From Macrostomum lignano (lineage: Eukaryota), in contig NIVC01004390.1 in assembly GCA_002269645.1 (NCBI GenBank), positions 1-47,486 of the forward strand: a stretch of 47,486 nt of DNA, read 5' to 3'. Positions 12,501-47,486 of the stretch are shown here, piece after piece. Position 1 is the first letter of the stretch, and each line of letters opens with the position of its first letter. The notes under the pieces were generated by a model. The model was not told the origin of the DNA and did no database searches. It saw only the letters and a list, made by a program, of their open reading frames with translations. The position numbers were made by a program, and so were the translations under genes.

Positions 12501-15500
12501 GCACAAATTCTCTGCCGTATGGACCCAGGGCAAACAAAATGGACTGAAAGATAAACGAAAAACTTTTTTTTGAAACTTGGCTTTATCTAGACTAGCCCGC
12601 CTAGTCTGCGGGAAAGTTAACTTAGGATATTTTATCAAAACGGTGTCTGTAGCTACAATTATAAATATTAAAAGATAAGATTAAAAAAGAGCATTGCCTG
12701 CTTTTAAAAAGCTTAATTTATTCGAAAATTTATTCAAAACTGCAAAAACTTACAATAGACGATAATTGAAATATGACTTGCAACTTTGAGATTATGAAAT
12801 CTGATGATTATGAAATTCGATGATTATGAAATCTGATGATTATGAAATCTGATGATTATGAAATCTGATGATTATGAAATCTGATGATGATTATGAAATC
12901 TGATGATTATGAAATCTGATGATTATGAAATCTGATGATTATGAAATCTGATGATTATGAAATCTGATGATTATGAAATCTGATGATTATTATGAAATCT
13001 GATGATTATGAAATTCGATGATTATGAAATCTGATGACTATGAAATTCGATGATTATGAAATCTGATGATTATTATGAAAGCTGATGATTATGAAATCTG
13101 ATGATTATGAAATCTGATGATTATGAAATTCGATTATTATGAAATCTGATGATTATGAAATCTGACGATTATGAAATTCGATGATTATGAAATCTGATGA
13201 TTATTATGAAATCTGGGGAATGGGAAGTTTAGGCATTATGAAAATTTGCGATTCTTTAACCCCAAAAAATAAGCTAGTATGTAGTATGTTTAGACAAAAC
13301 TAGTTCAGCGGCCTCCGAACGAGTGAGTGGAATTTAGAATTAGAGGCGCAAATGTTAAAAGAAATTACTAGCTCAAATGCTTTCTGTTTCAAGCCAATTA
13401 GATTAGAACAAAAAACCTCTACAATTCATGGACATTATAAACTTAGTTGAAAAAAGGAAACTGGCAGTTAAAGACAGATGCAAGAATGGAAGAATAGTGA
13501 AGCTAAACTAGCTGAGATTCCTAGAGAGAAAGAATCACAAGCAGCAATAAAGAAGTCTAACTCGGACAGTGCTATCTAGCTTAGGTGTTCATGCCAACTC
13601 TCTGAATTGAACCGAACCGACTAAACTAAAGAAAAAGGCAAAAAAGGCACGGGCAGAGGGGGGGGGAGAGAAGAGATTCCAGTTTTACAGTTCAGCTAGT
13701 CTAACTTGCGAGTTGCACTTTAACCGATAGCAGACCAAAGAAGGACAAAGAGAACCGCCCTTTCCTTCCCTCCGAAAATAACCGGCCTCGTGTTCGTTGG
13801 TTTATTTCCTATCTCTCTCCTCCCATGGAATACAAGAGTGTATAGATATCTGGAAGGACATTCCATTGTAGTTATCTTGGTTTAGCAATTTTAGGTCAAG
13901 TTCATCAACTCCAGATACTCTATCAATAGTGGCAAAATGAAGAACCGGAAAAATAAACATATCCTTGCATCGTAATCGTAAAAAATACGACACAATTTCA
14001 AACTGCCTTTACCTGGCACATAGTCGGCTGCAGAGCGGGGTTCCGCTGTATTGGCACGGCCGTATTAATTGGTTTAACGTCCAGCTCTGGGAAACGTTTT
14101 TTAATCACCTGGAGAGCAATCTTTACGCACTCGACGGGACCTACAACAATTAGTTTATCAAGAATATACTGATAGAAATCAAAACAAAAAACTTTGCAAT
14201 CTACCTGTCTTAAGAGCTTCCTTATGATGATCTAATTAATCAATATAATGGCAAGCTCATTTCCAAGCCGCTGATCCTTCAGCACTGCTACTGCCGCCCT
14301 CTCCCATACCCGCTGCTCCTTCAGCACTGCTACTGCCGCCCTCTCCCATACCCGCTGCTCCTTCAGCACTGCTACTGCCGCCCTCTCCCATACCCGCTGA
14401 TCCTTCAGCACTGCTACTGCCGCCCTCTCCCATACCCGCTGCTCCTTCAGCACTGCTACTGCCGCCCTCTCCCATACCCGCTGATCCTTCAGCACTGCTA
14501 CTGCCGCCCTCTCCCATACCCGCTGATCCTTCAGCACTGCTACTGCCGCCCTCTCCCATACCCGCTGCTCCTTCAGCACTGCTACTGCCGCCCTCTCCCA
14601 TACCCGCTGATCCTTCAGCACTGCTACTGCCGCCCTCTCCCATACCCGCTGATCCTTCAGCACTGCTACTGCCGCCCTCTCCCATACCCGCTGCTCCTTC
14701 AGCACTGCTACTGCCGCCCTCTCCCATACCCGCTGATCCTTCAGCACTGCTACTGCCGCCCTCTCCCATACCCGCTGCTCCTTCAGCACTGCTACTGCCG
14801 CCCTCTCCCATACCCGCTGATCCTTCAGCACTGCTACTGCCGCCCTCTCCCATACCCGCTGCTCCTTCAGCACTGCTACTGCCGCCCTCTCCAATACCCG
14901 CTGCTCCTTCAGCACTGCTACTGCCGCCCTCTCCCATACCCGCTGCTCCTTCAGCACTGCAAGTTTTGAAATAAAAAATCCAAGACCATTACAAACCTCT
15001 GATATTAACAACTTGAGTCTTCTTATCAAAAAAGTTGCGACTGATCCAAACCGAGGCGCCGGACTTGCTGCGAATATAGCTAATATTACGGCCGCCAGTG
15101 CCCACCATTGAGCCGCCCAATCGATTAGGTATGAGGAACTGGTGCACAATGTCAGTTTCGTCGCCTGGCACGGGCGAAGCGCCCCGTACAATAGTACGAT
15201 TATTACGCTCGCTAACAGTTTTCGCGTTAGTATTTTTGTTAGCGCTGTTGCTACTAATCTGAGCATTGTTTGAGTCGGAATGCCGACCGCTGTCATTCTC
15301 GTCTATTTCATCGTCTTCTTCAGCTGGCTCTGCAGTCTGCTGCTGGTTCTGCTGGTATTGACAATTCTTGGCTAGCCAATTACTGACCCGATTGTCAATG
15401 GCTGGCTGCTGCGACTGAGTCTCTTTGACATCATCTGACAGATTGTTGTTGGTCAAATTGTTGTCATTATTGTTGTCGCCAGTGCCATTTACACTGGCAA

Positions 15501-15600
15501 GATTAGTATTACTGGCAGGTGTTGCATTATTGCTTTCAGTTGGCTTTTTTGCAGCTTCACTGGCGCCAGCTGTTTTGGCTTCATCAACAAGTTCAGTCAT
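9140..15600 (-). CDS. AKAP1: AKAP1/Spoonbill-like KH + extended Tudor protein, 4 coding exons, about 483 aa after a 1-nt correction
   Basis: Exons 15600-14997, 14140-14013, 11134-10783 and 9506-9140 have GT-AG ends and matching phases (1,0,2). KH: FLIPNRLGGSMVGTGGRNISYIRSKSGASVWIS. Tudor: VFLQQPTHPSFHHL, WHRAII, YLDWGGY, KQIR/TEMMHLPFQAVE. These parallel AKAP1 FVQQHTHPTFHAL, WWRAQV, YVDYGGY, RQIRSDFVTLPFQ (recalled). Total 1451 nt needs one extra base at 10908-10911. Confidence 0.88.
9521..10333. repeat. 30-bp minisatellite GGGCTGGATTCTTTAGGTGAGTTTAGGTTG, about 27 copies, intronic
   Basis: Highly homogeneous array starting 14 nt from the exon-4 acceptor. Confidence 0.98.
10490..10765. repeat. 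About 31-bp minisatellite CATGAGCCTTGGCATCTCAGCACAATTCCCC, intronic
   Basis: About 9 copies visible. Confidence 0.92.
10783..11134 (-). CDS. AKAP1: AKAP1-like coding exon 3 (Tudor core), 1-nt slip at 10908-10911
   Basis: taacag|LSLPVGATIDVTV...CIAP then shifted frame FGNSWHRAIIADVFPEEDAVLMKYLDWGGYEKMPVGCLKQIR|gttagt. Confidence 0.88.
11155..12063. repeat. Composite minisatellite with GGCGATTCTTGA / GGCGATTTTT cores, intronic
   Basis: Longer unit (about 55 bp) to about 11510, then shorter mixed units. Confidence 0.93.
12791..13215. repeat. 16-bp minisatellite GATTATGAAATCTGAT, intronic
   Basis: Directly visible, with occasional GAT/TAT insertions. Confidence 0.95.
14013..14140 (-). CDS. AKAP1: AKAP1-like coding exon 2 (end of KH, linker); missed by the ORF track
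   Basis: ttgtag|GT CCC...TGC CAG|gtaaag; 128 nt; GPVECVKIALQVIKKRFPELDVKPINTAVPIQRNPALQPTMCQ. Confidence 0.85.
14268..14960. repeat. 39-bp minisatellite CCGCTG(C/A)TCCTTCAGCACTGCTACTGCCGCCCTCTCCCATAC, about 18 copies, intronic
   Basis: Lies between the exon-1 donor (14996) and exon-2 acceptor (14141). Confidence 0.96.
14997..15600 (-). CDS. AKAP1: AKAP1-like coding exon 1 (low-complexity N-terminus + most of KH domain)
   Basis: GCCATG start with in-frame upstream TAA; ends ...NIR G|gtttgt. Confidence 0.82.
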
Positions 15601-16150
15601 GGCCGTCAGTTGAATAAGTTATAGTGAGCACTTTATCTGTTAATGAATTCAGTGTTTTTTGGTTTGTGACTGTTTTAGTTTCTTATTGCAACAGTTAAGC
15701 AATCAATAATGCATGCGAACATGCATTAGATTTCAATTTTGTTACAACATTTATTGATTGCATTTGTTATATGGAATATGAATCATATTTATTGTAATTT
15801 TATACTCAATAAAACTGAAGAAAAAATATTATAGCATAGAAAATGCCACAAATCAAGGTTAAGCAAACTAGGGTAGTTTTCTAATGTAATGCTACAAATA
15901 ACATTTTTATCACATGGCAAAGAAAAGAACATTAGCAAGTTGCAAGTAAAATAAGCAAACATAAAAAAGCAATAAGACAATTCCTTAAAAAGCATGCCAT
16001 ATAGAATGAAGATTTCATATTTAACATTTTTATTTTTTACCTGTGGCAATTAGCAATTTTAGGTATATTAATGTTACAAGTTTTATATTAAATAATCAAG
16101 CTCAAGCACTAGCAATATACATATTGCATACTACATATACTAGCCTGTAG

Positions 16151-30200: not shown

Positions 30201-33200
30201 TGACTGTCAGGGATGCATCTGACTGTAGGAATGACTGTCAGGGATGCATCTGACTGTAGGAATGACTGTCAGGGATGCATCTGACTGTAGGAATGACTGT
30301 CAGGGACGCATCTGACTGTAGGAATGACTGTCAGGGACGCATCTGACTGTAGGAATGACTGTCAGGGACGCATCTGACTGTAGGAATGACTGTCAGGGAA
30401 GCATCTAAGAATGACAGTCTATTATTCTCTGATTTATGGCTGACTCATCGCGCAACCGTCTACTAAGAGTAAATATGGAATAGAATTTAACTCTTTTTTG
30501 TCTCAATATTTGAAAATTTTTAAATTAAAAAAAATTCCTGCATTTCCTACAGTTGCTCCCTTCCATAGTAAGAAGCGCTGCAAAGTTGCGCTGCTAAGTG
30601 CTATTCTGGTCCTGCTGTCGTTGGCACTGTTGCGCCAGCTGGTCCCGAGCAATCGGCGATTCGGCTACGCTCAAGAGGTGCATCACGAATCCTTGGTTCA
30701 CTCGCTTGAAGACGCTGATGTTGCCACGGAAACGAGGCGAGTACCGATCAGCCGTCAGGTGCACCAGAGCTGGAAGACCAGGAGGCTGCCTTCGGCGAGA
30801 GCGTCGCGTTGGTCAGAAAGCTGGCGCCGGTGCTTCCCAGACTGGCACTACCGGCTGTGGACTGACGCTGACAACCTGCGGCTGGTGCGCAGGCACTATC
30901 CCTGGCTACTGGACACCTACCTGGGACTCAGGAGGCCTGTGGAGAGAGCCGACTTAGCAAGGTAGTTCAATTGATCAATGACTGATGAGGCTAGGATGTG
31001 ATGTAGGTGTGCTGTTACTTGTTAGATTGTGTTGGTTTACCTGTTAGATTGTTTTGGTTTACCTGTTAGATTGTGTTGGTTTACCTGTTAGATTGTTTTG
31101 GTTTACCTGTTAGATTGTGTTGGTTTACCTGTTAGATTGTGTTGGTTTACCTGTTAGATTGTGTTGGTTTACCTGTTAGATTGTGTTGGTTTACCTGTTA
31201 GATTGTTTTGGTTTACCTGTTAGATTGTGTTGGTTTACCTGTTAGATTGTGTTGGTTTACCTGTTAGATTGTGTTGGTTTACCTGTTAGATTGTTTTGGT
31301 TTACCTGTTAGATTGTGTTGGTTTACCTGTTAGATTGTGTTGGTTTACCTGTTAGATTGTGTTGGTTTACCTGTTAGATTGTGTTGGTTTACCTATTAGA
31401 TTGTTTTGGTTTACCTGTTAGATTGTGTTGGTTTACCTGTTAGATTGTGTTGGTTTACCTGTTAGATTGTGTTGGTTTACCTGTTAGATTGTTTTGGTTT
31501 ACCTGTTAGATTGTGTTGGTTTACCTGTTAGATTGTGTTGGTTTACCTGTTAGATTGTTTTGGTTTACCTGTTAGATTGTGTTGGTTTACCTGTTAGATT
31601 GTGTTGGTTTACCTGTTAGATTGTGTTGGTTTACCTGTTAGATTGTGTTGGTTTACCTATTAGATTGTTTTGGTTTACCTGTTAGATTGTGTTGGTTTAC
31701 CTGTTAGATTGTGTTGGTTTACCTGTTAGATTGTAATGGTTTACCTGTTAGATTGTTTTGGTTTACCTGTTAGATTGTGTTGGTTTACCTGTTAGATTGT
31801 GTTGGTCACCTGTTAGATTGTGTTGGTCACCTGTTAGATTGTGCTGTCAAATATTAGATTTTCGGTGGGGAGTTGCAAAAGGAAGATTCTCATGGAGGGT
31901 GAAGGGGCGATTCTCATGGAGGGTGAGGGGACGATTCTCATGGAGAGTGAGGGGGGCGATTCTCATGGAGGGTGAGGGGCGATTCTCATGGAGGGTGAGG
32001 GGACGATTCTCATGGAGAGTGAGGGGGGCGATTCTCATGGAGGGTGAGGGGCGATTCTCATGGAGGGTGAGGGGGCGATTCTCATGGAGGGTGAGGGGCG
32101 ATTCTCATGGAGGGTGAGGGGGCGATTCTCATGGAGGGTGAGGGGCGATTCTCATGGAGGGTGAGGGGGGCGATTCTCATGGAGGGTGAGGGGCGATTCT
32201 CATGGATGGTGAGGGGGCGATTCTCATGGAGGGTGAGGGGGCGATTCTCATGGAGGGTGAGGGGGGCGATTCTCATGGAAGGTGAGGGCGATTCTCATGC
32301 AGGGTGAGGGGGGCGATTCTCATGGAGGGTGAGGGGCGATTCTCATGGAGGGTGAGGGGCGATTCTCATGGAGGGTGAGGGGCGATTCTCATGGAGGGTG
32401 AGGGGGCGATTCTCATGGAGGGTGAGGGGGGCGATTCTCATGGAGGGTGAGGGGCGATTCTCATGGAAGGTGAGGGGGGCGATTCTCATGGAGGGTGAGG
32501 GGCGATTCTCATGGAGGGCGAGGGGCGATTCTCATGGAAGGTGAGGGGCGATTCTCATGGAGGGCGAGGGGCGATTCTCATGGAAGGTGAGGGGGCGATT
32601 CTCATGGAGGGTGAGGGGCGATTCTCATGGAGGGTGAGAGGCGATTCTCATGGAAGGTGAGGGGGGCGATTCTCATGGAGGGTGAGGGGGGCGATTCTCA
32701 TGGAAGATGAGGGGCGATTCTCATGGAGGGTGAGGGGGCGATTCTCATGGAGGGTGAGGGCGATTCTTCTGCATGTTAATGCATGTACATGTAACTCCAT
32801 GGCTACTTATCGCTCTTCCAGATACCTGTACCTGCACAGACACGGCGGCATCTACGCAGACTTGGACAGCCTGTGCCTAAAGAATTTCACCGAGTTATTT
32901 AACACGGCCTCCATAGTGCTGGCGGGCATGGACCATGCACAGAACCGACCTTGGGAAACTGTGCAAGGCATCTACGTGCAGAACTCGCTGATGGCATCGC
33001 GGCCCGGGCACCCGTTCTGGCTCCAGCTGGCCTGGCGAGCTGCTCAGGAGCTTAAGAAATTCTCCGCATTGGAAAAGTTGGATAAGCGGAAATCCAGCCA
33101 GCTGAGGCCGGAGCACATCACGGGGCCGCTCATGCTGCTTCAGGAGCTGAGGAGCCACATCCGGAAACACGACAGCGTGAAACGGAAGGATGGCGCAGTT

Positions 33201-33392
33201 TTAAGCGGCGACCTGCTGATTTTGCCAGGCCGCTATTTGAATCCCTTCAGTTGGTCGGTGAACCGCAACCCGGCCAACTGTCGCGATCTGGGAAATATGA
33301 CGCTTCATCAGGAGAGGCTGTGCGCGGCCAGCTTCCCAGATGCCTACGCGGTGCAGTTTCACGCACAGAGCTGGCTTCATGGACACTTTTAA
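27252..33392 (+). CDS. GT32-family (Gly_transf_sug, DXD; SUR1/OCH1-like) type II membrane glycosyltransferase, 3 exons, 336 aa
   Basis: Exons 27252-27282 (MANLFRFIDI G|gtaagt), 30553-30961 and 32822-33392 join in phase (1011 nt, no stop). TM ALLSAILVLLSLALL; motifs VHQSWK, W..CFPDWHYRLWTD, ERADLARYLYLHRHGGIYADLD, NSLMASRPGHPFW, ITGPLML, HAQSW. Confidence 0.9.
27473..30413. repeat. 31-bp minisatellite GACTGTAGGAATGACTGTCAGGGACGCATCT with a 13-bp insertion variant, fills GT intron 1
   Basis: Directly visible, about 2.9 kb. Confidence 0.98.
31014..31846. repeat. 22-bp minisatellite GTTAGATTGTGTTGGTTTACCT, GT intron 2
   Basis: Directly visible. Confidence 0.97.
31880..32768. repeat. 23-25-bp G-rich minisatellite GAGGGTGAGGGG(G)CGATTCTCATG, GT intron 2
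   Basis: Directly visible; variable G-run length. Confidence 0.96.
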
Positions 33393-37002: not shown

Positions 37003-37918
37003 CACAGCGCGCAGGAGCTGCGTGTAAGGGTTAAAAAAATCTAGTACAAAGCGACCTGCTTTATTGTGTTCACCATTACTTGGTAAGTATTTTTCTAGAG
37101 TTTTTAAAAAATCTGCCGATGTCAAGCTCCACAATCAGTAAATTATTCAATTAGCATTAATTGCATGGCGAAAGGTCTAAACAAGTCATGATTTTTAACC
37201 AAGGACCATTGATTTTTTAAATTAAAGGCAAAATACACACCCATGAGTGCGTACCCCCAAGCCCCAAGGCACAGTGTACATGCATGACGAATTGCGAAAG
37301 CTGAGGCGCCATACACCCCTAAGTGCGCATGATCAACCTCTATCAGTGTAGGGTCAGTTGCGTCACCGAAAAAATGAAGTGCATTTAGCGTCACTCTCTG
37401 ACAGGCAGATTTTTTGTTTTTGAGCTATATAAATGATTAATTTAGCATAAATCAGCTCATCTCAGCATTTAGGAATTGAAAAGCCTTGAACTGAACACCA
37501 CCATGCCAAACTACTCAAAATCTCACGAAGAGAACCAGCTGAAGGTCTGCCTTGTGTGCTTTAAGCGCGGGTCAGGCATGCAGCGCATTGACAAAGCAGC
37601 TCTACCTCGCATCCAGCGGTACTTTTATGCAAACTACGATTTGAAGAACGAGTTTCTCCCAGCTGCTCTGTGTGCTCGATGCCAGGGTCTGCTGCTGGAT
37701 ATTGAACGGGGGAATCGAACTTCTGAAGCTCTTCCTGCCCCTTTTGATTTTTCAAAAGTCGTACCGACAAAGGAAACAAGGGGCCACCCGAAGTGCAGCT
37801 GCTGTCTCTGTGAGATTGCCAGAGAAAGTCCAATCGGCAAAGGACTCGGCACCTGGAAGCCGGAGCCGCATCGCCTTGGCAGACCGAAAACCGATTCGCC
37901 AAACAAGGAGGTGCCACC
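37003..37918 (+). mobile_element. 5' part of a Chapaev/CMC-like DNA transposon
   Basis: Sharp junction with CACAG at 37003 (CAC termini typify CMC/Transib elements), followed by a Cys/His-rich transposase-like N-terminus. Confidence 0.55.
37503..37918 (+). pseudogene. Interrupted transposase N-terminus with Chapa-type zinc finger
   Basis: MPNYSKSHEENQLKVCLVC (H-x7-C-x2-C) ... YDLKNEFLPAALCARC ... CSCCLCEIAR; cut at an AGTAGT junction. Confidence 0.6.
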
Positions 37919-38081
37919 AGTAGTATATAAAACTAGCAATCTTCGCCCCCCGATGGGGGACATCTGGATAGAATCTCTGTTCTCTACAAGTAACAAAAAG
38001 ACAGCCAGAAAATCCTTCACAAAGACAACAGACAAACTGCTCAAATGAAGTGAATTGCAATAAGAAATCTTCCCAAGACCA

Positions 38082-40992: not shown

Positions 40993-42145
40993 CTCTTTTC
41001 AATTGGAGAACATGAATTGTGGCCCTTATAATTCAATTCTTACAGCAAGTCAATTGGAGTAAAAAGTTATGACATAATCAATTTCTCAGTCAGCCAGTAT
41101 CAGTCTCAATTTAAGTTAGCAATATGGTTACGCAATTTAAATCAAGTCGTGTGTGCATTTCTTCGGTACTGTTTTCAACTTGTTGTGATGCAATCTTTAT
41201 CACAATCGGAATTCAGTCAGTCAGTTTTTTCTCTAGCATTCTTACAATGCATTTCAGGTCGAAAGAGCTGCTTGACCTTTGCAAAAAAGCATGTTTTTCG
41301 AATATTTAATCCCTTTAAAATTGAGCAATTTCTTAGCCAAGATGCATGTACCGTCCCAGGAAAATTTCTGATCGAATAATGCAAGTTTGAAGAAAATCGG
41401 TTGAGCCATTTTTTCTGAAATCTATCGCATACCTACCTACCTACCTACCCACAGACAACTCATTTTTAGTATATAGGAAGACGCTTCTAGACCCAGAGCA
41501 CTTTTTTAATGACCGTTTTAAGGGTCTAGAGGGGGGACACGGGGGGTAAATAAAAAAACACATCTAAACACCATTAATACATCTAATCACCCATAATCAC
41601 CCCTAACAATAAAAATCATTCCCAACACTTCCAAACACTCCCCAACACCCCCCTCGCGTCCCCCCTCTTAAGACCTTAAAAACGGCCATTAAAATAAGGT
41701 CTGATCTGTAAGCGTCTTTTTCTATACTACTACTCTATAACCCCTTGCCCGCGCCGCAGGCGCGAAGGGTCACAAAAGAGTTTAAACTGAGTCATGGTAA
41801 TAGTAACACTCAACAAAAAATTACTCTCATAGCCACTATTGGCTAGCTTGCAAAATCTTGCCGTAGCAGGAATTGAACGCCCACTCAGCCATCCAACTCT
41901 ATAAAAACCACAGCCATCAACCCAGTTCTAGCTCATCTCTCAGGAAGAAGAAGACAGGCTCCGCGCGTCACAAGTAAAATGGGGTGCCCACCATCAATGA
42001 ATAAGTTTTTAACAAATCGTCCAGAAAAATTCTGGACGTCCAGAAAAAAATGACTCAATGCAGTATATACACCATCTTGGGTTGAAAAATATTCTTTTGT
42101 GTGTTCTCGTATTCTTTTTTTCTGTTACTAAAAATAGAACAAAAA

Positions 42146-42544
42146 ATGACACACGTTACACATGTGCAAAATATAAATGAGTATCAGGTAGGAGATCCAA
42201 TTGAATACCGAGGTGAGGGACTTTTTGATTTGGTTGGAACAGCAGCAAATTTTGTTAAAGACAATATGGGGCTTATAGGGCAAGCTGGCTCTGCAGCAGG
42301 CTCTATAACAAATGCTGTAAAAGGAGGAATTGAAGCAGCTAGAGCGGCAGAAGAACTAAAGAAATTGAGAGATTTTAACGACACCCTCTCACAAATAAAT
42401 GCAATAAAAGATTTAAAGCTGGCACAAGCCGCACAACCAACAGAAACCCCCACGAAAACCACGCCAATAAGTAATAAAGATATTCAGGATTTTAATAAAA
42501 TGTTAAATACTATTAAAGGTGGAAAAGGATTAAAGAAATTTTAA
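42146..42544 (+). CDS. Polinton ORF A, 132 aa, putative virion core / protein-VI-like amphipathic precursor
   Basis: YRGEG-LFDLVGTAANFVKDNMGLIGQAGSAAGSITNAVKGG amphipathic segment; C-terminal IKGGKGLKKF. Confidence 0.65.
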   Translation: MTHVTHVQNINEYQVGDPIEYRGEGLFDLVGTAANFVKDNMGLIGQAGSAAGSITNAVKGGIEAARAAEELKKLRDFNDTLSQINAIKDLKLAQAAQPTETPTKTTPISNKDIQDFNKMLNTIKGGKGLKKF

Positions 42545-42554
42545 CAATATAAAA

Positions 42555-43549
42555 ATGGACTCAGTTAATGATGATGAAAACCGGTTATATTTTATAGGAG
42601 AAATTGTAGATACCTTAAATCTTGATGATAATAAGCAAACCCACACAATGTTAAAAAGATTGGATCGATTAGGTAAAAAGTTTGACTACGACATCGATAC
42701 ATTTAAACTCGCAGCAAAATATGCACAAGAAGGAAGGCCAATATCCTTTAAGAATCGCGGCAGAAATTATAGGTTGACAGACTCCGATGTGAAATTTTTA
42801 ATGGAGACTCACACTAAAAAGGACGGCGGATTACTACCCATTCTACCGCTTCTTTTAGGACTTGGCGCAGCTGGAGCAGTCGGTTTAGCCGGAAAAAGAA
42901 TTCATGATAATGTAAAACAGCTAGGAGAGTTAAGAGCGAAACAGGGGGGAATCTTACCCTTGCAGCTTTGCTCCCAATAATTTTTGCAGGAATTGGAGCA
43001 GCTGGAGGAGTTGCTGGCGGAGCAGCTGGAATTGCAAAAGCAGTAAATGACAAAAAAGCTGCGGACGAAAAAGCTAAAAGAGAGGCCGAATTTCAAAGAC
43101 AGCAAATAACGCAGGACGCACAATTTAAACAAAAACTTATCGATACAATTAATAGTAGTTCAGCAACAGCCGAGCAAAAAAGAAATGCAGAAGCTAGGTT
43201 ATCAGCTGGAAAAGGTTTACTCTTGCAAGGAACAAATCACGGGAATGGTTTGGTACTAAAAGGAACAACCCAAGGAAGCGGAGTTGTCGCAGATAAACTA
43301 CATGAATTTGGCCAAACTTTAGAAAAAACGGGTGAGAAAGCTAAAGGATTTTTTGACAATATTGGATCCAATTTTAGACCGGCTGTTCAGAAGATTTTTA
43401 CTAAGTTAGGAAAAGATTTTAATATCATTGAAAAACACGACGGAAGCGGATTATATCTCGAAATGCGACCAAAAGCAGGTTCAGGAATTTTCTTAAATTC
43501 AAACGTTATGGGCAATGGATTGCTATTACCAAAAGCAGATCTCGAATAG
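42555..43549 (+). CDS. Polinton ORF B, about 331 aa after a 1-nt correction, pX-like core polyprotein
   Basis: ORFs 42555..42980 and 42968..43549 fuse with one base added at 42957-42961 (GGILPLAALLPIIFAGIGAAGGVAGGAAGIAKAV); repeated GxG(L/I/V) motifs. Confidence 0.7.
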
Positions 43550-43632: not shown

Positions 43633-46600
43633 ATGGAAGCAATTTTAGCTCAAATCGACAACCCTGAACTTAGAGCACAATTAATAGCTCAAATCGAAGC
43701 ACAACGAATTGCCGATAGGGCTGAAATAGAAGCAAGAATTAGGGCAGAAAATGAGATACGTTTAGAAAGACAATTAAATGATATTGATAACCTCCAACCA
43801 CAAGGACAAAATGGAGCTGAAGTAATATATATAGATATAGATATAAATACAAATTATAAAGAATATTTTAAACAAATGAAAGATAAATTAAAGACCATAT
43901 TAATCAATTATACTATAAGGCCAAATAACAAACGACAGCCAATTAAGTATAAAATAGAAGTTGAAACAGAATTTTAAAAACCAAATATTCTTAATGCAAA
44001 TTCAGAAATTGAAGTAATAAATAACTTTTCACAAGAATCATATAAAACATTATTATCAATGGGAAATTACAACAATCAATTCGATCAAATAGAAGCTGAG
44101 TTTGATGAATGGATAGATAAGATGACAGAAAACGGATCTGGGTTTATATTTGTATCCTGTAATTCAGCAATAGTAAAGATTGTTCCTATTGAAATTCTTA
44201 AAGGACGATCACATATGAAGCTCAAATTTAAATCACCTATGATTATAAATCCAGACAATAAAGATAATAAATGTTTATTATGGTGTTTATTAATTCATAA
44301 ATATCACAATCAAGTAGAATCACACATTAATAAAATATATAATTATAGACAATATGAGGATGAAATAATAATGAAAAACATATCATACCCAGTAGCAATA
44401 GATGATATATATAAGATTGAAAAAATGAATGGTTTAAATATTAATGTGTTTACAATTGAAGAACCAAAAGATCTAGAAGAAATTTTAACCGATCCAGAAT
44501 GGTATAAGAAAAGGTGTTATCTTGTTAAGCCAGCAACTGATATAACAGCACCAGATCAAATCGATCTTTTGTACATGCAGCGCGAAAATGAAACACATTA
44601 TATATACATAAAAGATATTAGTTCTTTTTTAAGAGAAAATAGAAATAGATATCCACTATGTAGAAATTGTTTTACATTTAAAAAGGATGAAACAGCTCTT
44701 AAAAACCACCAACGATTTTGTTTAGATCACAAATTTACTAATGCTATAATGCCAGCATCTGAAGATGCAACCCTAAAGTTCCAACAACATTATATGGCAG
44801 TTAAAAAACCAATAGTAATATATGCTGATTTTGAAGCAACAAATGTTCCCTTAAAAGAATCACAGACGGCATCTGATGATGGGGATCGTGCAAAGCACGC
44901 GACCTACGGGACGAATGCACAAAAAAATTGGCACAACAGTTTCCGAATAGTTATTGTATATATGTACACTCTGTAGCTGATCATATATTTAAATCAAGGA
45001 TGATTACTTACCACGGTAATGATGCAGCTAAGCACATGGCAGAATCATTAGTAAATGTATTTGAATATATTCAAAATCAATATGATAAATTATCAAAAAA
45101 TATTAATATGACAAATAAGGATAGAGACAATTATAAAAATGCAACAAATTGTTTTATGTGCAAAAGACATTTAAGTAAGAATAATAAGATACGAGAACAT
45201 TGTCATCTAACAGGAAATTATCGAGGGGCAGCATGTAGATCATGTAATGCAAAAGAAGGAAAAGGATGTAAGGAAATACCAGTATTTTTTCATAATGGTT
45301 CCGGATATGATTTTCATTTCTTAGTTCGAGAATTGCTTCATTTAGGAAAGGATGAATATGAAATAAATATATTACCTAAAACATCAGAAAATTACATATC
45401 AATAACATATGGTAAGAAATACTCCCATCTAGTTTTTCTAGATTCCTTGAGATTCTTATCAACATCTTTAGCAAATGTTGTTTCATCATTAGTTCCAAAA
45501 CCATGGGATTTAGAAATAGTAAAGAAAAACTTTCCAATACTATTGAATCGTTTCAAAAAAGAAAAACTATCCGAGGAAGAACTAATGCTATTAACTCGTA
45601 AGGGCATCTATCCATATGAATATGTAACATCTGAAGACGTATTTTTTCATACCGAATTACCGCCCATAGAAAAGTTTTATTCACATTATCACAATCAAAT
45701 ATAAGTGAATCGGATTATGAACACGCTCAAAAAGTATGGAAATACTTTAATTGTAAAACATTTAAAGATTATCATAATCTATATCTTAAAGCAGATGTTC
45801 TCCTATTAGCTGATGCATTTGAAAACTTTAGGAATCATACATATGAGAATTTTAAAATTGATCCCGCATATTGTTTCAGTGCACCGGGATTAACATGGGC
45901 TTGTGGTTTGAAACATACAGATGTTAAGATTGATTTACTAACTGATCATGATATGTTGTTAATGATTGAGAGAGGAATTCGCGGCGGATTCTCGGGTGTA
46001 CTAGGAGATAGATATACTAAAGTAAATAATAAATATCTACCAAATTATAATAAAAAAGAAAAATCATCATATGTATTATATCTAGATGCAAACAATTTAT
46101 ACGGTGGTTGTATGAAACAAAAATTACCAATAGCTGATTTCCAATGGGAAGATGACCCGATTATTACAAAAATATTCCCGAAGGAAGGGGCTGTATTGTA
46201 GAGGTGGATTTGCAATATACTCGGGAAGCAAAAGCAAAAACATATAAATATCCTTTAGCTCCAGAGCATTGTTCAGTTAATGAAGATGATTTATCACAAA
46301 CACAAAAAGATTATCTTAAAGTAGATAATGCAAAACATCTAGCAACAAAAAAATTAATATTAAATTTACATGATAAGAAAAACTATGTAGTGCATTATAA
46401 GCTTCTACAATTTTATGAAAAGCAGGGATTAAAAGTGTCTAAAGTACATCGAACAATATCGTTTATTGAGGAAGATTGGTTAGCTAAATATTTGATTTAA
46501 ATTCAAATCAGAGACAGATGTCAAAAACAAATTTTGAGAAAGATTATTGGAAATTAATGAATAATGCTTTTTATGGAAAAACGGTTGAAAATATTAGAGA

Positions 46601-47391
46601 TAGAACCCAATTCCATTTAGAAAAGGATATTGATAAAGCAAAGAAATATTTTCTCAAACCTAACTTTAAAGACTTTATAAAATTTGATGATAACTTTATG
46701 GGTATTCATATGAGAAATAAAACAACAAAATTTCTTAACCAATATTTATTGGAATGGTTGTTTTAGATTATGCAAAGCTGGTAATGTATGAATATTATTA
46801 TGATGTTATATAATAAAACATGGCCAGATAACTATCCAATATATGCAGACACCGACAGTTTGGTATTTAAGGTTGAAACAGAGGATCGGAAAGTCCGCGA
46901 ACCAAAGGTTCGATGTCTATAAAAGATATGGAAAAAATTAAGGATACATTGGATACCTCGACTATCCGGATAACCATCCTTTAAAATCAGATCAAAATAA
47001 AAAAGTTGTACTTAAAATGAAAGATGAATTAAATAGCAAAATCATAACCGAGTTTATAGCAATAAGATCAAAAATGCTATGCATTTAAAGTTTAGGACAG
47101 GAGGAGAGGTAAAAAAAATAAAAGGGGTATCAAGGCAGCAGTAAAAGATAACATTTGATGATTATAAAAACGTACTTTTAGATTACCTTAATACAATTGA
47201 AAATTTCATGCTCCACAATATCGATTAAATTCAGATAAGCATCAGATGTTTGTCATCGAGACAATAAAAAAACATTAAGTCCATTTGATGATAAAGATAT
47301 TTAGATGATAAATTAAACATATCCATATGGTTTAAAAGAAGAGATAAAAAATATGATAAAGATAAAAACAAAAAGAAGATATAATAAGTAA
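43633..47391 (+). CDS. polB: Protein-primed family B DNA polymerase (pPolB), Polinton type, with at least seven apparent indels/stops
   Basis: NGSGF, INPDNKDNKCLLW, IYADFEA (ExoI), CFMC..REHCHLTGNYRGAACRSCN, FHNGSGYDFHF (ExoII), RKGIYPYEY, YLKADVLLLADAFENFR (ExoIII), GIRGG, YLDANNLYG (46079-46105), KLMNNAFYGKT, YADTDS (46842-46859), KMKDE, PFDDK. 3' end approximate. Confidence 0.95.
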
Positions 47392-47486
47392 ATATAATGA
47401 ATACAAAGCGGCAATAAATAATTATTATTACGATTGTGATTGTGAATCCGAATGTGATTGTGAATATAATACATTTCTAGAATATT

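What the first reader, a model, noticed from the sequence alone, without database searches (positions are those of the whole stretch)
42555..43549. Polyprotein with two tandem GG-hydrophobic peptide modules and six GxG motifs: candidate protease-matured virion core with non-standard P4
The corrected ORF B has KKDGG/LLPILPLLLGLGAAGAVG and AKQGG/ILPLAALLPIIFAGIGAAGGVAGG. Both resemble the adenovirus pX C-terminal GG/FLPALIPIIAAAIG pattern. These are followed by GKGLLL, GNGLVL, GSGVVA, GSGLYL, GSGIFL and GNGLLL. Adenain cuts (M/I/L)xGG/x and (M/I/L)xGx/G (established), but here P4 is Lys at both GG sites. That would imply a protease with different specificity, and a duplicated membrane-active module.
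Basis: partly seen in the sequence, partly recalled or inferred. Interest (0 to 1): 0.7.

Follow-up and report, generated by a model that had tools for sequence, protein, structure and literature searches.

The report
Maverick virus core protein, doubled module
This is a capsid-interior protein of a Maverick-type virus lodged in a eukaryote genome, carrying two copies of a known adenovirus-like cut-and-release peptide; the lysine thought unusual at its cut sites turns out to be normal for its whole family.

Summary
The motifs are real, but the second GG module straddles a frame break in the window. Eight intact relatives are single ORFs with both K-x-G-G sites, and most contig depth in four studies of the same species differs from the window at the break, so this is one gene of about 330 codons. 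It sits at the left end of an endogenous Maverick/adintovirus-like element, before a broken pPolB. It belongs to a large family of adenovirus-pX-like core proteins, a class already described in adintoviruses and polinton-like viruses. Lys at P4 is the family norm: 224 of 266 modules, and 39 of 42 in a search blind to P4. In 36 of 56 related loci an adenain-like protease is present, nearly always as the next gene. None lies in the window, which ends inside the element. Other conserved sites in those elements have Val/Ile/Leu at P4, so the protease is more likely P4-tolerant than Lys-specific. Two or more modules occur in 19 of 258 relatives. The modules are hydrophobic but barely amphipathic, so membrane lysis is unsupported. 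Cleavage is inferred, not shown. Verdict: a variant of a known kind, moderate interest.

The parts
41467..41729 (.). Left end of the element: long imperfect hairpin
   Evidence: Inverted arms 41467-41491/41705-41729 and 41528-41546/41650-41668; -46.6 kcal/mol, z -9.1. One contig matches from 41467 but has 83 other letters before it, consistent with another insertion site.
42146..42544 (+). ORF A, 132 aa, possible pVI-like/cupiennin-like core protein (GxG then amphipathic helix; C-terminal K-G-G-K-G-L-K-K-F)
   Evidence: Motif-level likeness to the gene between penton and hexon in related loci; profile test weak, 94 of 2000 shuffles score as well; helix moment 0.33.
42555..42815 (+). ORF B N-terminal alpha/beta domain, net charge 0
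   Evidence: HHalign probability 92%, E 6e-7, over 36 columns to the N-terminal part of single-module relatives; pLDDT 74-83 in this part of a relative's model; charge.
42816..42884 (+). GG site 1 (Lys at P4) and hydrophobic module 1
   Evidence: K, G, G and the two Pro invariant in 8 of 8 two-module relatives.
42936..43021 (+). GG site 2 (Lys at P4) and pX-like module 2; the frame break falls inside it
   Evidence: Pfam Adeno_PX E 0.0024, 18.2 bits, below the cut-off of 25; family profile's best PDB match is chain 9lr9_E, named PX, E 0.079.
42951..42967 (+). Frame break in the window's copy
   Evidence: not the dominant form in contigs of four studies.
43022..43549 (+). Charged helix and C-terminal tail with six GxG-hydrophobic motifs in two groups of three, 11-12 residues apart
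   Evidence: 3 to 5 such motifs in each of the 8 two-module relatives.
43633..47330 (+). Protein-primed DNA polymerase B in at least seven pieces, with an endonuclease VII insert and a possible vOTU Cys (44272) and His (44596)
   Evidence: Pfam DNA_pol_B_2 and Endonuclease_7 above cut-off; 35 relatives at E<=1e-20; Cys in 21 of 21 and His in 27 of 28 aligned stretches. The 3' end coordinate is approximate.

Best explanation
ORF B is the pX-like (L2 mu-like, 'Macc') virion core precursor of an endogenous Maverick/adintovirus-like element. SHOWN: one gene in relatives, family membership, conserved K-x-G-G before each module, and tight linkage of the family to an adenain-like protease gene. INFERRED: the precursor is co-packaged in immature particles. 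The element's clan CE protease cuts after each Gly-Gly and probably at some Gly-x|Gly sites. This frees the N-terminal domain, a 40-residue peptide, module 2 with its charged helix, and short tail peptides. The cuts detach the core from the capsid wall, as adenain does for pVII, pX and pVI and the mavirus protease does for the capsid tail. The protease accepts Lys as well as Val/Ile/Leu at P4. The doubled module is a lineage-level tandem duplication that has happened several times in the family. The window's frame break is a consensus error near a contig end or a decayed copy of a multi-copy family.
For: Intact two-module relatives. 257 family clusters at E<=1e-3. Adeno_PX at E<=0.01 in 58 of 150 relatives scanned, 5 above the curated cut-off. 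Best PDB match is PX. Protease in 36 of 56 loci, 34 directly downstream on the same strand by my distance rule; its profile matches adenain 1avp at E 5e-5 and ASFV S273R at 1e-3. The same loci hold rve integrase, double jelly-roll capsid, A32 ATPase and PLA2 genes. P4 Lys in 39 of 42 distinct contexts from a pattern that did not specify P4. Lys also enriched at P4 of tail GxG motifs, 50 of 174 against 12% background. P4 Val/Ile in 9 of 9 N-terminal and Ile/Leu in 7 of 7 internal sites of the neighbouring small core gene. Published analogues: adomavirus LO6 found as small fragments in virions (10.1101/341131); mavirus GG|X and GX|G cuts (PMC6048507).
Against: No cleavage was observed; every site is a sequence inference. 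No adenain-like gene in the window, and here the next gene is pPolB, not the protease. The 56 loci are distant relatives, mostly single-module and partly redundant (42 distinct contexts); no locus of the two-module subfamily was recovered. The pX match is below the Pfam cut-off and weak in PDB. Mavirus leaves two GXG sites uncut (PMC6048507), and an adenovirus consensus site can stay uncut (PMC12517501), so motif does not equal cut. The tail GxG motifs are conserved mostly on the prime side (Leu/Ile, Tyr/Phe, Leu, then Pro in 97 of 174), which suits a binding motif as well.
Confidence: 0.62

Rival explanations
1. One reading: the protease has an adenain-unlike, Lys-directed S4 pocket, and only K-x-G sites are cut.
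For: P4 Lys or His in 244 of 266 modules, none Met/Ile/Leu. Lys or Arg in 12 of 15 C-terminal GxG sites of the gene beside the ATPase, and Lys in 6 of 9 C-terminal sites of the small core gene. Met/Ile/Leu depleted at P4 of tail GxG motifs, 13 of 174.
Against: Conserved Val/Ile/Leu-P4 GxG sites in the same elements, including the one that precedes the amphipathic helix. Only 2 of the window's six GxG motifs have Lys or His at P4. The S4 pocket could not be examined.
Confidence: 0.15
2. The GG modules and GxG repeats are mainly capsid-binding motifs: each docks in a hexon-like cavity, repeats raise avidity, and most GxG motifs are never cut.
For: Strong prime-side conservation and 11-12 residue spacing; copy number varies freely (0 to 4 strict motifs per protein). 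In adenovirus, cleaved pVI and pVII peptides bind hexon cavities (PMC7998265), and a PX chain is in a solved structure.
Against: Does not explain the conserved Lys two residues before GG or the linkage to the protease gene. It is compatible with the best explanation for the GG sites.
Confidence: 0.12
3. The released modules are membrane-lytic peptides for endosome escape, and duplication doubles the dose.
For: Mean hydrophobicity 0.77-0.85; a basic patch follows module 1. Starrett 2021 notes pX-melittin likeness by HHpred, and Buck 2024 lists pVI and pX as hypothetical membrane-active core proteins.
Against: Hydrophobic moment only 0.10 and 0.18 against 0.33 for the ORF A helix, the better lytic candidate (scale values recalled). 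The review passages read give pX roles in condensation and E2 accumulation, not lysis.
Confidence: 0.2
4. The sites are cut by the vOTU-like domain of the element's own pPolB or by a host deubiquitinase/SUMO protease, not by an adenain.
For: The window's pPolB keeps an invariant Cys and His in the region where polinton vOTU lies (PMC11161782; assignment by position, not by profile). Such enzymes cut after Gly-Gly (established knowledge).
Against: vOTU is proposed to release the terminal protein (PMC11161782). The family gene is linked to the adenain-like gene. Ubiquitin-type enzymes need a folded ubiquitin-like domain before GG (established knowledge).
Confidence: 0.05

Closest known systems
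Adintovirus PLA2X and GasderminX (Starrett 2021, PMC8502044) and 'Macc' core proteins (Buck 2024, 10.1101/2024.03.25.586562)
   Same: pX-like domain in a core protein of an animal polinton-type element; proposed membrane activity.
   Different: No PLA2 or gasdermin domain detected here; two modules in the middle of the protein plus a GxG tail. Their sequence files could not be read, so P4 in the named proteins is unchecked.
L2 mu core-like protein of entomopoxvirus-associated polinton-like viruses (Barth 2024, PMC11296320)
   Same: Stand-alone pX-like gene in elements with an adenovirus-type protease and A32 ATPase.
   Different: The passages read do not discuss cleavage sites, P4 or duplicated modules.
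Adenovirus pX / pre-mu (Pfam PF05829)
   Same: Conserved hydrophobic segment directly after a Gly-Gly site.
   Different: About 80 aa in mastadenoviruses with an Arg-rich mu peptide and (M/I/L)xGG sites; ORF B is about 330 aa, has no Arg-rich peptide and has Lys at P4.
Mavirus capsid tail and protease MVP (Born 2018, PMC6048507)
   Same: Arrays of GG|X and GX|G sites cut by a clan CE protease; at least four motifs in 10 of 12 virophage capsid tails.
   Different: The sites are on the major capsid protein. In the related loci here capsid and penton show no conserved GG/GxG column.
Adomavirus LO6 (Welch 2020, 10.1101/341131)
   Same: pX-like hydrophobic segment in a core protein found as small fragments in virions.
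   Different: Reported motifs are adenain-like, (M/I/L)xGxG or L(L/R)GG; circular-genome virus.

Membership tests
Maverick/Polinton (adintovirus-type) element | Protein-primed DNA polymerase B | tested here: met
   DNA_pol_B_2 above cut-off in two pieces; broken into pieces in the window.
Maverick/Polinton (adintovirus-type) element | rve integrase | tested here: inconclusive
   Not among the 13 window ORFs scanned; the element runs off the window; present in related loci.
Maverick/Polinton (adintovirus-type) element | Major and minor capsid proteins and packaging ATPase | tested here: inconclusive
   Not among the window ORFs scanned; capsid and ATPase present beside family genes in related loci.
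Maverick/Polinton (adintovirus-type) element | Adenain-like maturation protease | tested here: inconclusive
   No hit in six frames of the window; 36 of 56 related loci have it.
Maverick/Polinton (adintovirus-type) element | Terminal inverted repeats and target-site duplication | not testable with these tools
   Only the left end is in the window; no genome is held.
Adenovirus pX (PF05829) | Conserved hydrophobic segment after Gly-Gly | tested here: inconclusive
   18.2 bits against a cut-off of 25; 5 of 150 relatives pass the cut-off.
Adenovirus pX (PF05829) | Arg-rich mu peptide between two cuts | tested here: not met
   N-terminal 92 residues net charge 0; the 40-residue inter-GG peptide +3.
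Adenain substrates | Met/Ile/Leu at P4 | tested here: not met
   Lys at both GG sites; Ser, Asn, Thr, His, Lys, Val at the six GxG sites; none of 266 family modules has Met/Ile/Leu.
Adintovirus PLA2X | Parvovirus-type PLA2 domain fused to the pX-like domain | tested here: not met
   No PF08398 hit in either piece or in 150 relatives; PLA2 sits in other genes of L043 and L046.
Adintovirus GasderminX | Gasdermin C-terminal-like domain before the pX-like domain | tested here: inconclusive
   No Pfam hit; low-confidence model without a clear fold match; the published sequences could not be read.
Polinton pX-like / L2 mu-like core proteins | GG-hydrophobic pX-like module in a gene of a polinton morphogenesis module | tested here: met
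   Profile links ORF B relatives to 257 clusters; family genes lie among capsid, ATPase and protease genes.
Polinton pX-like / L2 mu-like core proteins | Presence and cleavage in virions | not testable with these tools
   Needs particles or an in vitro assay.

The most novel reading that the evidence does not exclude
Animal Mavericks run a full adenovirus-style maturation programme with their own recognition code, K-x-G-G and K-x-G-x|G, shared by at least three core genes: the pX-like gene, the gene beside the ATPase, and a pVI-like gene whose last few residues would be released as a short basic peptide like the adenain cofactor pVIc. If so the programme predates adenoviruses, adenain's aliphatic P4 rule is derived, and the predicted neo-N-termini give a direct mass-spectrometric marker for mature Maverick virions.
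Probability: 0.3. Interest if true: 0.62.

Novelty: new variant of a known kind. Interest (0 to 1): 0.36.

Why it matters
Whether animal Mavericks make mature virions is still open in the papers read (PMC8097293, 10.1101/2023.08.22.554363). A defined substrate family with a conserved K-x-G-G site, next to its protease in most loci, makes maturation testable with short peptides and a natural enzyme. The family-wide Lys at P4 and the repeated module duplications were not found in the papers returned by eight searches. The library lacks most subscription journals and I read passages only, so this is a weak claim of novelty. The window's own gene adds little beyond being one more two-module member.

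Tried and rejected
No genome is held for the window, so the rest of the element and its protease could not be sought. Protein-seeded scans of viral and metagenome contigs found no relative of ORF B or its two-module subfamily. A broad alignment had no stretch conserved enough to scan with. Degenerate DNA patterns in viral contigs gave 6 chance matches in phages and 0 matches; these six loci were left out of all counts. AlphaFold model of the two-module alignment: mean pLDDT 49; no match at E<=0.001 in BFVD; best VIA Z 8.0 at rmsd 6.2 to an unrelated helical chain. ESM Atlas for the N-terminal 90 residues: best 0.86, unnamed, lead only. No named adintovirus protein among the hits. The Starrett supplement was cut before its sequence files, and bioRxiv supplements were not available; both may bear on whether Lys at P4 is already visible in print. 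No RNA holder listed. ORF A as a pVI-like family member: profile test weak, no PDB match to pVI. No paper on adenain's S4 pocket was found, so pocket residues were not compared. No complex prediction was run. Four look-ups of earlier findings were empty. Rejected: two separate genes; programmed frameshift (relatives are unbroken and contigs differ at the break); a peculiarity of this one element.

Full report
Setting. Bases 1 to about 41460 are repeat-rich eukaryotic DNA. From about 41467 to the window's end lies an AT-rich element: a hairpin end, ORF A (42146-42544), ORF B (42555-43549) and a protein-primed DNA polymerase B in pieces with an endonuclease VII insert. The element continues beyond the window (loose end at 47485). 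No genome is held. All 20 runs that hold the stretch carry one species label, from 7 studies. The host is probably an animal. This is inference: the only named relatives are from Lottia gigantea and Oculina patagonica, and Starrett 2021 reports adintovirus virion genes as restricted to animals.

Observation. Module 2 is split between two frames at about 42951-42967. Six GxG motifs in the tail exceed all 100,000 shuffles (maximum 2), with the caveat that the pattern was fitted afterwards.

One gene. A search with the first piece returned three intact proteins of 265-319 aa that cover both pieces. A profile search and a cluster look-up added five more. All 8 have two modules with Lys at P4. Contigs from four runs of four studies show a length difference at the break in 77, 76, 96 and 100% of depth. 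They also differ at several polymerase breaks. The family is multi-copy, and contigs drop rare variants, so I cannot tell a consensus error from a decayed copy. One of the four runs may be the window's source.

The family. The three-sequence profile found 257 clusters at E<=1e-3, of which 150 were listed. Over all 258 family proteins fetched, 242 have at least one module by my rule, 19 have two to four, and 16 have none. The multi-module proteins fall by eye into four N-terminal types, which suggests repeated duplication; no tree was built. Adeno_PX hits 58 of the 150 proteins scanned at E<=0.01 and 5 pass the curated cut-off; none has a PLA2 or gasdermin hit. The best PDB match of a 57-sequence profile is chain 9lr9_E, named PX, E 0.079.

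P4. Of 266 modules, 224 have Lys, 20 His and none Met/Ile/Leu (122 of 161 in the first set). That set was seeded with Lys, so I scanned metagenome contigs with a DNA pattern that starts at Gly-Gly. All 56 loci encode the module; 42 distinct contexts give Lys 39, Ser 2, Ile 1. Lys at P4 is therefore the family norm. Tail GxG motifs (174 in 154 proteins) are also Lys-enriched at P4 (50, background 12%) and poor in Met/Ile/Leu (13), but their strongest conservation is on the prime side. Related sequences are not independent, so the binomial p-values of that call are not quoted.

The protease. In 36 of the 56 loci a profile built from ten of them finds a Cys protease; 34 lie directly downstream on the same strand by my distance rule, one falls just outside the rule, and one is 1.6 kb away. 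Only 39 loci have 400 bases or more downstream. The profile matches adenain (E 5e-5) and ASFV S273R (E 1e-3). The loci also hold integrase, capsid, ATPase and PLA2 genes (35 ORFs scanned). The window has no such gene. These loci are distant, mostly single-module relatives; the context of the two-module subfamily was not seen.

Specificity. Across gene families of these loci, the gene beside the ATPase ends in GxG in 15 of 15 (P4 Lys 9, Arg 3). The small gene between penton and capsid has three conserved GxG sites: N-terminal with Val/Ile in 9 of 9, internal with Ile/Leu in 7 of 7, C-terminal with Lys in 6 of 9. Inside the module itself a second Gly-Gly or GxG has Ile at P4 in 30 of 30, though the window's copy lacks that Gly-Gly. 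Capsid and penton show no conserved site. If these sites are cut by one enzyme, its S4 pocket takes both Lys and aliphatic residues. Born 2018 shows the mavirus protease cutting GG|X and GX|G and states that most clan CE proteases recognise GG|X. The departure from adenain's rule is therefore expected in kind.

Membrane activity. Module 1 and a relative's module 2 are hydrophobic (0.77, 0.85) with low helical moment (0.10, 0.18); the ORF A helix has 0.33 (scale recalled). ORF A resembles the small pVI-like gene in its end motifs only. Lysis by the modules is possible but unsupported.

Mechanism, most likely. Precursor packaged with the genome; cut after each K-x-G-G and at some GxG sites by the element's adenain-like enzyme; core released from the capsid wall; hydrophobic peptides retained inside the particle. 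Packaging, cleavage and function are all inferred. Confidence 0.62. Rivals: Lys-only protease 0.15, mainly capsid-binding repeats 0.12, lytic modules 0.2 (not exclusive of the best reading), vOTU or host enzyme 0.05.

What is known. Papers seen as search passages only: PMC8502044 (pX-like domains in PLA2X and GasderminX; also the first part of its supplement, cut before the sequence files), 10.1101/341131, PMC6048507, PMC11296320, PMC8097293, PMC11161782, PMC7998265, PMC12517501, 10.1101/2024.03.25.586562. Passages of 10.1101/2023.08.22.554363, PMC11131425 and 10.64898/2026.10.13.758929 held nothing on this protein. The class of protein, its likeness to pX, and proposed membrane activity are in print. 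Lys at P4 across the family and tandem modules were not found in eight searches. The labels 'cupiennin-like' and 'pVI-like' for ORF A rest on gene position and recalled pVI layout, not on a profile match.

Verdict. Real feature, works like adenovirus pX, not a member of PF05829 by cut-off or by the mu peptide, member of the polinton pX-like core family. New variant of a known kind; interest 0.36.

Noticed in passing
window 41467-41729: The element's left end is a 263-base imperfect hairpin (z -9.1) with a 99-base A/C-rich loop; whether it is part of a terminal inverted repeat cannot be seen.
   Followed up: partly
window 41771-42117: Contigs show joints and loose ends at both edges, and lower depth inside: other copies of the family carry different sequence here.
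   Followed up: no
window 42146-42544: ORF A has a pVI-like layout: GxG before an amphipathic helix and a short basic C-terminal peptide after a Lys-P4 GxG. Family assignment is weak.
   Followed up: partly
window 44272 and 44596: Invariant Cys and His in the pPolB N-terminal region, probably the vOTU dyad; a second protease candidate inside the window.
   Followed up: partly
window 43633-47330: pPolB carries an endonuclease VII insert. Listed indel differences from contigs cluster in the last 1.4 kb, as expected of a thin consensus near a contig end (12 of 38 rows shown).
   Followed up: partly
L043:4916-5779 and relatives: The uncharacterised gene beside the ATPase ends in a conserved GxG-Leu motif in 15 of 15 relatives that reach it, Lys or Arg at P4 in 12: a likely third substrate.
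   Followed up: partly
L046:296-1609: PLA2-like domain fused in front of the rve integrase; L052:2434-3750 looks similar by eye.
   Followed up: no
P0126 and P0077: P0126 appears to fuse a protease-like N-terminus to the pX-like protein (by eye). P0077 is a Lottia gigantea gene model joining a neurexophilin-like domain to this family, perhaps a mis-prediction.
   Followed up: no
window 30444-33392: Host glycosyltransferase (DXD, PF04488) fragments separated by tandem repeats.
   Followed up: no
window 14989-15618 (-) and 37476-38048 (+): A KH-like exon and a Cys-rich ORF of possible transposon origin, by eye; most of 1-41460 is tandem repeat.
   Followed up: no
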